DNA from: an uncultured Chloroflexia bacterium
GTDB lineage: Bacteria; Chloroflexota; Dehalococcoidia; GIF9; UBA5629
Assembly (NCBI GenBank): GCA_963752975.1
Contig: CAVWAG010000003.1
Coordinates: 206,793-270,792 of the forward strand
Reading direction: 5' to 3'
DNA: 64,000 nucleotides
In this document: in pieces, positions 46,885-47,030 of the stretch
How positions within the stretch are numbered: position 1 is the stretch's first letter
How the letters are laid out: each line of letters begins with the position of its first letter
Position numbers and translations under genes: made by a program
Notes under the pieces: generated by a model
Databases searched by the model: none
What the model saw: only the letters and a program-made list of their open reading frames with translations
Told to the model about the DNA's origin: nothing

Positions 46885-47030
46885 TATGATGATGGATGCG
46901 GTAGACCGTCCCGTCCCTTGGTCTTATAGGCCGTTACGTAGCATGGGTCGCCGCATCCGATCTCCAAGTAACCCGAACAGTTGTCTGGGATAAGAAACCC
47001 GCATCATGCAAGGAAGGGAGAAAAGGAGAA
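46885..47030 (+). ncRNA. IS110 bridge RNA (target-binding loop plus donor-binding loop); ends approximate
   Basis: Stem GGATGCGG/CCGCATCC encloses CCCGTCCCT (46910-46918, equals left target + core) and ACGTAG (46936-46941, reverse complement of core + right target). A second loop holds ACAGTTG (46977-46983, equals the element right end) and ATGCAAG (47006-47012, pairs with CTTGTAT with one G-T wobble). Confidence 0.85.

What the first reader, a model, noticed from the sequence alone, without database searches (positions are those of the whole stretch)
46961..47030. Donor-binding loop specifying the element's own joined ends
Seen: CCC-GA-[ACAGTTG]TC-T-GGG-ATAAGAAA-CCC-GCATC-[ATGCAAG]-GAA-GGG. 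ACAGTTG equals 47998-48004. ATGCAAG pairs with CTTGTAT (46853-46859) with one G-T wobble. The left donor guide continues TC rather than CT, so core pairing there is wobble or absent. Inference: these are the left and right donor guides, and the imperfect positions may limit activity.
Basis: partly seen in the sequence, partly recalled or inferred. Interest (0 to 1): 0.8.

Follow-up and report, generated by a model that had tools for sequence, protein, structure and literature searches.

The report
Bridge RNA donor loop of IS110 element
This stretch is the donor-binding loop of the guide ("bridge") RNA of an IS621-like jumping gene, and it matches the element's own two ends just as in the published E. 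coli system, so it is a correct but ordinary example of a known mechanism.

Summary
46855-48006 is an IS110-family insertion sequence: recombinase CDS 47036-47995, a 181-nt left end and an 11-nt right end. It is present in three near-identical copies in this genome, and an empty target site exists. The left end encodes an IS621-type bridge RNA, and 46962-47028 is its donor-binding loop.

- **Left donor guide.** ACAGUUGU (46977-84) repeats the right-end terminus plus the first core base, as a U.G wobble.
- **Right donor guide.** GCAAG (47008-12) plus an AU pairs with the left end CTTGTAT, with a G.T wobble at G47008.
- **Relatives.** Among 105 distinct loops, 89 of 96 testable ones carry their own guide 7-mer plus CT at the right end (shuffled control 22 of 19168). 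Seven of 10 variant guides are exactly mirrored there.

- The TC after the guide is the second commonest family state. Position 9 is linker, as in the IS621 structure.
- The G.T wobble is the majority state (89 of 105). It sits at the place of IS621 G161.dT12, where making the pair canonical was already reported to raise insertion.
- G47013 is a handshake guide.

This is a new member of a known kind, of low interest.

The parts
46846..46852 (+). Left target half (LT, positions 1-7) CCCGTCC, outside the element; 3' arm of a hairpin repeat
   Evidence: Shared by all three copies' left flanks. The same letters plus CT plus ACGTT form an empty site at own-genome C6:210872.
46853..46854 (+). Core CT at the left junction
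46855..48006 (+). IS110-family insertion sequence (1152 bp counted with the right-hand core CT)
   Evidence: Three copies: one identical over the 1154-nt stretch 46853-48006 (element plus left core CT), one with a single extra T near 47664.
46855..46859 (+). Right donor (RD positions 10-14) TGTAT, first bases of the left end
   Evidence: The same CTTGTAT was found in the 23 relatives kept because their boundary read CTTGTAT, so this count is partly circular. It is the same as IS621 C8 T9 T10 G11 T12 A13 T14, spelled out in passages of PMC11208158.
46871..46893 (+). Predicted 5' stem-loop of the bridge RNA
   Evidence: MFE and centroid fold.
46894..46958 (+). Target-binding loop (65 nt, as IS621 nt 34-98). 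Linker CGU 46907-09; LTG CCCGUCCCU 46910-18; RTG ACGUAG 46936-41; handshake CA 46942-43.
   Evidence: LTG equals the left flank plus core. RTG is the reverse complement of CTACGT at 48005-10. CA is complementary to donor positions 6-7 (TG, 48003-04).
46962..47028 (+). Donor-binding loop (DBL) with basal stem CUCC/GGAG
   Evidence: Fold. Stems supported by covariation in 98 relatives.
46972..46974 (+). Outer stem 5' strand CCC (pairs with GGG 47016-18)
   Evidence: Alignment columns 13-15 with 71-73: paired in 98 of 98.
46977..46984 (+). Left donor guide ACAGUUG+U (positions 1-8); preceded by linker GA 46975-76 and followed by linker CU 46985-86
   Evidence: 7 of 7 identical to 47998-48004. The 2+8+2 layout is as in IS621 (G121-G122, A123-C130, A131-U132). 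Family counts.
46987..47000 (+). Inner hairpin GGG-AUAAGAAA-CCC, with the invariant bulged A at 46996
   Evidence: Alignment column 47 is an invariant A.
47003..47004 (+). Invariant AU, homologous to IS621 A157-U158 (pairs with donor T14, A13)
   Evidence: Invariant columns A44 T45 in A1. Of 105 distinct loops, 100 read in register by the regex, all with G-N-A-U there; the other 5 were mis-registered. IS621 pairing.
47005..47007 (+). Variable segment CAU (equivalent of the flipped-out U159-U160 of IS621).
   Evidence: The length of this segment varies from 1 to 5 nt among relatives; it ends in AT in 17 of 105.
47008..47012 (+). Right donor guide core GCAAG: G47008.T12 wobble, then C:G11, A:T10, A:T9, G:C8
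   Evidence: [G/A]CAAG in all 105 (this was required by the search pattern), with G 89 and A 16. IS621 G161-G165.
47013..47014 (+). DBL handshake guide GA: G pairs with target position 7 (C46852) after strand exchange; A does not pair with C46851
   Evidence: The first handshake base pairs with target position 7 in 22 of 23 relatives with a credible boundary, including two A:T covariants. Rule from PMC11208158.
47023..47028 (+). Ribosome-binding site AAGGAG, inside the 3' strand of the basal DBL stem
47036..47995 (+). Recombinase gene (319 aa), IS110-family RNA-guided transposase
   Evidence: Pfam PF01548 2.2e-25 and PF02371 7.5e-18. NCBIfam NF033542, 218 bits against a cut-off of 140. PDB ISCro4 5.2e-43 and IS621 1.3e-40, with D11, E55, D97, D100, S235 aligned to IS621 D11, E60, D102, D105, S241.
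47998..48004 (+). Left donor (LD positions 1-7) ACAGTTG, last bases of the right end
48005..48006 (+). Core CT at the right junction
48007..48011 (+). Right target half ACGTT (RT positions 10-14), outside the element
   Evidence: ACGTT here, ACATT at the two other copies. Empty site.

Best explanation

Inferred mechanism, by homology with IS621:
- After excision the element's ends are joined into ...ACAGTTG-CT-TGTAT....
- A recombinase dimer holding this loop reads that junction by base pairing.
[quoted passage not shown] Position 8 is a U.G wobble.
- G47013 is a handshake base. It pairs with the incoming target strand (C46852) only after top-strand exchange.
- The first loop of the same RNA (46894-46958) reads the target CCCGTCC-CT-ACGTT.

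Shown here: the sequence matches, the element ends, the empty target site, the RNA stems and the guide-end covariation in relatives, and homology of the protein including its catalytic residues.

Inferred and not shown: that the RNA is made, that it binds the recombinase, and that recombination occurs.
For: (1) Element ends are fixed independently by three copies and by an empty site CCCGTCC-CT-ACGTT at C6:210872 of the same genome.

(2) The left donor guide is identical in 7 of 7 letters to the right-end terminus. The right donor guide pairs with CTTGTAT with one G.T. Both occurred by chance anywhere in the left end in 79 of 100000 shuffles.

(3) The layout matches the IS621 cryo-EM description nucleotide for nucleotide: 2-nt linker, 8-nt LDG, 2-nt linker, hairpin, G-N linker, AU, flipped-out bases, GCAAG, 2-nt handshake, 1-nt linker. 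It includes a non-canonical G.T at the same donor position 12 (PMC11208158, passages).

(4) Relatives. The loop was found in 145 of 163 sources, giving 105 distinct loops. Of 96 with at least 150 nt of search room, 89 carry their own guide 7-mer plus CT 850-1400 nt downstream; shuffled guides did so in 22 of 19168. Of 10 distinct guides that differ from ACAGTTG, 7 are exactly mirrored at the right end (ACAGCTG, ACGGATG, ACAGTCG twice, ACGGTTG twice, ACAACTG) and 3 have one mismatch.

(5) Stems. 89.1% of cells are paired against 78.5% in shuffles (0 of 500 reach the observed value). Six of 10 pairs show double changes, and slid controls reach at most 51%. RNAalifold finds the same two stems on its own.

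(6) The target loop and both handshake guides fit.

(7) Protein: NF033542 'IS110 family RNA-guided transposase', 218 bits; IS621 1.3e-40 with all five catalytic residues aligned.
Against: - No expression or activity data. No RNA run holds the stretch, and the four DNA runs laid gave only short contigs on the recombinase gene, none on the loop and no circle junction.
- No Rfam family matched, so there is no curated model to score against.
- The MFE of the 188-nt left end is only modestly better than shuffles (z = -1.51; 13 of 200 shuffles fold at least as well).
- Seven of the 96 testable relatives lack an exact guide match. These include L025/L150, where the guide is ACAGTTG but the end is ACAGCTG.
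- The guide is nearly invariant in this clade (95 of 105 ACAGTTG), so most of the 89 matches are inherited, not independent.
- I found no good sigma-70 promoter across the joined ends of this copy.
- One of the three copies carries a frameshifting extra T.
Confidence: 0.93

Rival explanations
1. The repeated 7-mers are DNA-level subterminal repeats read by the transposase protein. One is a direct copy of the right end and the other an inverted copy of the left end. No RNA guide is involved.
For: Guide-end covariation by itself cannot tell an RNA guide from a DNA repeat that co-evolves with the termini. IS110 donors do carry short subterminal inverted repeats (figure legend in PMC11208160).
Against: The segments sit on the two strands of an internal loop whose flanking stems covary as RNA, including G-U pairs. 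The G/A alternation opposite an invariant T (89 and 16 of 105) preserves RNA-DNA pairing but not DNA identity. The homologous IS621 loop is seen paired to DNA in cryo-EM structures.
Confidence: 0.03
2. The structure is only a translational leader of the recombinase mRNA that sequesters the ribosome-binding site. The matches to the ends are coincidental or vestigial.
For: The basal stem TCTCC/GGAGA covers the Shine-Dalgarno sequence. In relatives a helix of 5 bp or more between the flanks occurs in 84%, against 57% with shuffled 5' flanks.
Against: This does not explain the 7 of 7 and 6 of 7 matches to independently defined ends, the mirrored variants in relatives, or the fitting target loop and handshake bases. 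A leader role and a guide role are not exclusive.
Confidence: 0.02
3. The loop is a genuine donor-binding loop, but this element is attenuated or no longer mobile. The causes would be a U.G at core position 8, a G.T at position 12, only one of two DBL handshake pairs, a degenerate -35 box at the right end, and one frameshifted copy.
For: In IS621, passages report that an 'RDG extension (position 161)' raised insertion, and that an engineered RNA carrying A161 pairs canonically at that position. Many relatives have TTGAC[AT] exactly 13 nt before the core, where this copy has TATTGG. L002 has an extra T near 47664.
Against: Three copies differ by 0-1 positions over 1154 nt at three different sites, which implies recent movement. 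The 'imperfect' states are common in the family (U8 in 17 of 105; G.T in 89 of 105) and one of them is native to active IS621. All catalytic residues are intact.
Confidence: 0.15

Closest known systems
IS621 bridge RNA donor-binding loop (E. coli; Durrant et al. 2024, PMC11208160; Hiraizumi et al. 2024, PMC11208158)
   Same: - The RNA lies in the left end, upstream of a DEDD/Ser recombinase.
- The segment order and lengths of the loop are the same.
- The right donor CTTGTAT and the CT core are the same.
- The RDG core is GCAAG, with the same G.T at donor position 12.
- The LDG covers positions 1-8 only.
- The first handshake base pairs with target position 7 and not with its own donor position 7.
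- The target lies in a hairpin repeat. IS621's REP targets appeared only as REP query sequences and a cited title in the passages I read; the link itself is recalled.
   Different: - The protein is a distant homologue (phmmer E 1.3e-40; percent identity not computed).
- Left donor positions 6-7 are TG here and AT in IS621.
- LDG position 8 is U, not C.
- Three rather than two bases lie between the AU and GCAAG.
- The linker between the two loops is about 3 nt rather than 11.
- The left end is 181 nt rather than 191 bp.
- The RTG offers 6 contiguous pairs against 4 in wild-type IS621.
ISCro4 transposase (PDB 9t56)
   Same: Best solved-structure hit of the recombinase (5.2e-43, residues 1-304).
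   Different: I did not see its RNA or its paper. Only the protein sequence match is known here.
IS1111-group seekRNA elements
   Same: Same recombinase superfamily, and an RNA with two guide loops.
   Different: There the RNA is encoded after the recombinase gene (recalled, not from a call). Here only 11 nt follow the stop codon and 181 nt precede the start.

Membership tests
IS110-family bridge RNA system (IS621 type) | Recombinase with RuvC-like DEDD domain plus Tnp domain carrying the catalytic serine | tested here: met
   PF01548 and PF02371. NF033542, 218 bits against a cut-off of 140. D11, E55, D97, D100, S235, G236 align with IS621 D11, E60, D102, D105, S241, G242.
IS110-family bridge RNA system (IS621 type) | Long non-coding left end upstream of the gene and a short right end | tested here: met
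   181 nt (46855-47035) against 11 nt (47996-48006).
IS110-family bridge RNA system (IS621 type) | CT core dinucleotide at both junctions | tested here: met
   CT at 46853-54 and 48005-06 in all three copies.
IS110-family bridge RNA system (IS621 type) | RNA with 5' stem-loop and two stem-enclosed internal loops | tested here: met
   Fold. DBL stems supported by covariation. The TBL stem is seen in the fold only; I did not test it for covariation.
IS110-family bridge RNA system (IS621 type) | [quoted passage not shown] | tested here: met
   7 of 7 plus a wobble at position 8. 89 of 96 relatives; 7 of 10 variant guides mirrored.
IS110-family bridge RNA system (IS621 type) | RDG complementary to core plus left-end terminus, pairing discontiguously | tested here: met
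   GCAAG with CTTGT (one G.T), plus AU with AT. The RD and CAAG do not vary in this clade, so the only variation informative on pairing is G/A opposite T12.
IS110-family bridge RNA system (IS621 type) | LTG and RTG of the first loop match the flanking target | tested here: met
   CCCGUCCCU equals the left flank plus core. ACGUAG is the reverse complement of CTACGT. An empty site exists in the same genome. At the two other copies the RT has A at position 12, which is one mismatch.
IS110-family bridge RNA system (IS621 type) | Handshake guides pair with position 7 (and 6) of the non-cognate DNA, not the cognate one | tested here: met
   TBL CA against donor TG (2 of 2). DBL G against target C7 (1 of 2). 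G47013 cannot pair with its own donor G7. In relatives, 22 of 23 with a credible boundary; over all 49 raw hits, 32 Watson-Crick, 3 wobble, 14 none.
IS110-family bridge RNA system (IS621 type) | RNA is transcribed, binds the recombinase and directs recombination | not testable with these tools
   No RNA holder listed, and contigs only.
IS110-family bridge RNA system (IS621 type) | Promoter reconstituted across the joined right and left ends | tested here: inconclusive
   My scan of the joined ends found no box pair across the core scoring 9 of 12 or better. A left-end-internal TTAATA-17-TATGAT lies at 46862-90. Many relatives have TTGAC[AT] 13 nt before the core.
Rfam curated RNA family | Match to a covariance model at gathering score | tested here: not met
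   No relevant hit in 46500-48300 at E up to 1. Whether Rfam 15 holds a bridge-RNA family at all is unknown to me.

The most novel reading that the evidence does not exclude
The imperfect contacts could be selected attenuators rather than defects. They are U.G at core position 8, G.T at donor position 12, and a half-filled DBL handshake. In addition, the basal stem of the donor loop hides the recombinase's Shine-Dalgarno sequence, so a left-end transcript may fold either as a guide RNA or as a translatable mRNA. Together these would keep donor capture and recombinase supply low and coupled.
Probability: 0.2. Interest if true: 0.4.

Novelty: new member of a known kind. Interest (0 to 1): 0.2.

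Why it matters
It adds one more natural, probably recently active bridge-recombinase element from an uncultured bacterium, fully annotated down to single guide bases and with an empty target site in the same genome.

It also shows that two 'imperfect' guide positions are widespread natural states in this clade. That is mildly useful for people mining or engineering bridge recombinases. It does not change the picture of how these systems work.

Tried and rejected
- **Rfam.** Only terminator-like chance hits around 46713-46801 and nothing on the bridge RNA.
- **E. coli genomes.** blastn of the left end gave no match, so I could not align IS621 DNA directly. I relied on residue numbers quoted in the papers.
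- **First guide-end script.** It had an off-by-one error in the pattern, so the guide was read one base late. All its counts were discarded and redone.
- **Left-end boundaries.** Finding the boundary by matching 'LT plus CT' inside the element, with up to one mismatch, gave 49 hits. I kept only the 23 whose boundary reads CTTGTAT and dropped 26 as likely chance matches. This filter was chosen after seeing the output. On all 49 rows the handshake count is 32 Watson-Crick, 3 wobble and 14 none.
- **An earlier reading of mine.** I had thought some relatives (L016, L020, L023, L026) have other right-donor sequences that pair with a conserved AUC. One search placed their true boundaries further upstream, so I rejected that reading.
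- **Promoter across the joined ends.** My hand candidates (TTGCTT-17-TATTAT and TTGGTT-15-TATTGT) score below the scan threshold, and none was reported.
- **Sequencing runs.** No RNA holder was listed. Four DNA runs with small shares gave five short contig pieces. Four lie on the recombinase gene (47457-47953) and one on the upstream terminator. None covers the loop, and there were no joints. This says nothing on expression or circles.
- **Supplements.** Supplementary files of the papers are closed. The IS110 orthologue catalogues of PMC11208160 may already list this element or its relatives.

Full report
**Observation.** Every letter and coordinate in the finding is correct. The stretch reads CCC(46972-74) GA ACAGTTG(46977-83) TC T GGG(46987-89) ATAAGAAA CCC(46998-47000) GCATC ATGCAAG(47006-12) GAA GGG(47016-18). 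ACAGTTG recurs at 47998-48004 and is followed by CT. CTTGTAT lies at 46853-59, and the reverse complement of ATGCAAG differs from it only where G47008 faces T46857.

**The element.**
- The ORF at 47036-47995 (real start ATG 47036, Shine-Dalgarno AAGGAG 47023-28) is an IS110-family recombinase.
  - Pfam: DEDD_Tnp_IS110 2.2e-25 and Transposase_20 7.5e-18.
  - NCBIfam: NF033542 'IS110 family RNA-guided transposase', 218 bits against a cut-off of 140.
  - PDB: ISCro4 5.2e-43 and IS621 1.3e-40 over residues 1-304.
  - D11, E55, D97, D100 and S235-G236 align with the IS621 catalytic D11, E60, D102, D105 and S241-G242.
- The genome holds three copies. One is identical over 1154 nt and one has a single extra T near 47664.
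- Identity between copies begins at ..CCCGTCC|CT|TGTATTG and ends at ..ACAGTTG|CT|AC(G/A)TT. The element is therefore 46855-48006, with CT cores on both sides, a 181-nt left end and an 11-nt right end.
- An empty site CCCGTCC-CT-ACGTT exists at C6:210872 of the same genome. It lies inside a repeat whose hairpin 3' arm is CCCGTCC.

**Anatomy of the left-end RNA.**
- The fold gives a 5' stem-loop (46871-93), a first stem-enclosed loop (46894-46958) and a second one (46962-47028).
- I mapped these onto the IS621 residue numbers given in passages of PMC11208158.
- The first loop is 65 nt, as in IS621. It has linker CGU (46907-09), LTG CCCGUCCCU (46910-18, equal to left flank plus core), RTG ACGUAG (46936-41, the reverse complement of CTACGT at 48005-10) and handshake CA (46942-43, complementary to donor positions 6-7, TG).
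- The second loop has these parts in order:
  - outer stem CCC/GGG;
  - linker GA;
  - LDG ACAGUUGU (46977-84);
  - linker CU;
  - hairpin GGG-AUAAGAAA-CCC;
  - linker GC;
  - AU (47003-04);
  - CAU (47005-07);
  - GCAAG (47008-12);
  - handshake GA (47013-14);
  - linker A.
- This is the IS621 order and spacing: G121-G122, A123-C130, A131-U132, hairpin, G155-U156, A157-U158, U159-U160 flipped out, G161-G165, 166-167, U168. The only difference is one extra base in the flipped-out segment.

**What the IS621 papers say about the 'imperfect' positions.**
- In IS621 the LDG pairs with the bottom strand over positions 1-8 only. The next two bases are linker.
- The RDG pairs A157-U158 with T14-A13 and C162-G165 with G11-C8. 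G161 forms a non-canonical pair with dT12.
- The IS621 right donor, as spelled in those passages, is C8 T9 T10 G11 T12 A13 T14. This is the same CTTGTAT as here.
- So G47008.T is the exact counterpart of a wobble that is native to an active element.
- PMC13626964 (passages) states that IS621 insertion is enhanced by the 'RDG extension (position 161)'. PMC11208158 lists position 161 among the features of an engineered bridge RNA in which A161 pairs canonically with dT12.

**Relatives.** One scan of genome contigs and one of metagenome contigs each returned 80 loci with 50-85% protein identity.
- A pattern for the loop found it in 145 of 163 sources, giving 105 distinct loops.
- Of the 96 with at least 150 nt of search room, 89 have their own guide 7-mer followed by CT 850-1400 nt downstream. 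Shuffled guides did so in 22 of 19168 trials.
- The guide is ACAGTTG in 95 of 105, so most of these matches are inherited.
- The informative cases are the 10 distinct variants.
  - Seven are exactly mirrored at the right end: ACAGCTG in L022/L023, ACGGATG in L032, ACAGTCG in L036 and L064, ACGGTTG in L076 and L147, ACAACTG in L078.
  - Three have one mismatch: L060, L080, L122.
- Conversely, L025/L150 keep ACAGTTG while their end reads ACAGCTG.
- For L071, L101 and L161 no convincing end was found.
- Position 8 of the guide is C in 85, U in 17, A in 2 and G in 1. Position 9 is T in only 14. [quoted passage not shown]
- The base facing donor T12 is G in 89 and A in 16. Both pair with T.

**Register of the right donor guide.**
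- The segment between the conserved G-N-A-U and [G/A]CAAG is 1-5 nt long, and it ends in AT in only 17 of 105.
- The AU before it is invariant in the 98-row alignment. All 100 of the 105 loops that the pattern read in register also carry it; the other 5 were mis-registered.
- By homology, the AU at 47003-04 is the partner of donor A13-T14, and CAU 47005-07 is looped out.

**Stems.** I aligned 98 distinct loops (A1).
- My structure was outer stem columns 12-15 with 71-74, and inner stem 28-33 with 45-51 with a bulged invariant A.
- It has 89.1% of cells paired against 78.5% in shuffles (0 of 500 reach the observed value).
- Six of 10 pairs have changes on both sides. Slid controls reach at most 51%.
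- RNAalifold on its own predicts 13-15/71-73 and 28-31/48-51, and it leaves the two guide strands in the loop.
- The nearly invariant A at column 11 and the invariant A at column 47 sit where IS621 has flipped-out A116 and A150.

**Handshake guides.** In IS621 the two bases after each right guide pair with positions 7 and 6 of the other DNA after strand exchange, and pairing with the cognate DNA blocks recombination.
- Here G47013 can pair with target C46852 but not with its own donor G48004. A47014 does not pair with C46851.
- In the 23 relatives whose left boundary I regard as credible, the first handshake base pairs with target position 7 in 22. This includes two cases where the target has T and the handshake base is A (L135, L136). 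L157 is the miss.
- That count was read from the rows printed. Over all 49 raw hits the script counted 32 Watson-Crick, 3 wobble and 14 none.

**Against, or missing.**
- There is no evidence of transcription or activity. No RNA run was listed, and the four DNA runs gave only short contigs on the recombinase gene or the upstream terminator.
- Rfam gave nothing.
- The single-sequence fold is only modestly better than shuffles (z = -1.51).
- I found no convincing promoter across the joined ends of this copy. Many relatives, by contrast, have TTGAC[AT] exactly 13 nt before the core.

**Verdict.** The finding is a correct, carefully read example of the donor-binding loop of an IS110-family bridge RNA, a mechanism published in 2024. 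Its 'imperfections' are normal family states, and one is shared with IS621 itself. It is a new member of a known kind. A specialist would not be surprised, so interest is low.

**Papers seen.**
- PMC11208160, PMC11208158 and PMC13626964: passages by term search only.
- 10.64898/2026.08.31.748434: abstract and outline.
- The other titles: search listing only.
- Supplements were closed.

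Noticed in passing
window 46831-46852; own genome C6:210847-210885, C13 (L002 left flank), C3:180730-180760, C10 near 200787: The target half-site CCCGTCC is the 3' arm of a hairpin repeat (GGACG..-loop-..CGTCC, often ..CAGGTYTAAAGACCCGTCC) that occurs at several places in the genome. One occurrence is an empty site with the full CCCGTCC-CT-ACGTT. This recalls IS621 and ISPpu10, which insert into REP-like repeats.
   Followed up: partly
L002 (own genome C13), equivalent to window about 47664: One of the three copies has a single extra T inside the recombinase gene, which breaks the frame. It may be a real inactivating mutation or an assembly error.
   Followed up: partly
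window 46961-46965 with 47025-47029: The basal stem of the donor loop pairs TCTCC with GGAGA, the Shine-Dalgarno sequence of the recombinase gene. In 105 relatives a helix of 5 bp or more between the 20-nt flanks occurs in 84%, against 57% with shuffled 5' flanks. In 50 of 105 it covers an SD-like tetramer.
   Followed up: partly
window 47986-47993; relatives L010, L026, L031, L033, L034, L057, L065, L101 right ends: Many relatives carry TTGAC[AT] exactly 13 nt before the core CT. This is the right distance for a -35 box feeding a TATxxT at left-end bases 3-8 once the ends are joined. This copy has TATTGG there (TTGGTT two bases later), so any junction promoter would be weak.
   Followed up: partly
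L022/L023 versus L025 and L150: In closely related copies (L022, L023 and L025 come from the same assembled genome; L150 is a metagenome contig), two have guide ACAGCTG with end ACAGCTG. Two have guide ACAGTTG with end ACAGCTG. This is a natural matched/mismatched pair.
   Followed up: no
L021:1434 and L021:2651: One locus holds two related but non-identical donor loops 1217 nt apart, each with its own ACAGTTGCT end. This suggests two elements in tandem.
   Followed up: no
window 46744-46777 and 48010-48012: The element sits between convergent genes. It lies about 75 nt after the intrinsic terminator of the upstream gene. My reading, from the ORF translation and not from a family search, is that this gene encodes an electron-transfer-flavoprotein-like protein (45720-46718). 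The element ends 3 nt beyond the stop codon of a gene on the minus strand (48010-50079) that I read the same way as elongation-factor-G-like.
   Followed up: no
L084 (metagenome contig, 85% protein identity): The closest relative found has the same U at guide position 8, the same G.T wobble and the same flanks CCCGTCC-CT. Its LTG reads CCUGUCCCU, one mismatch to its own flank.
   Followed up: no
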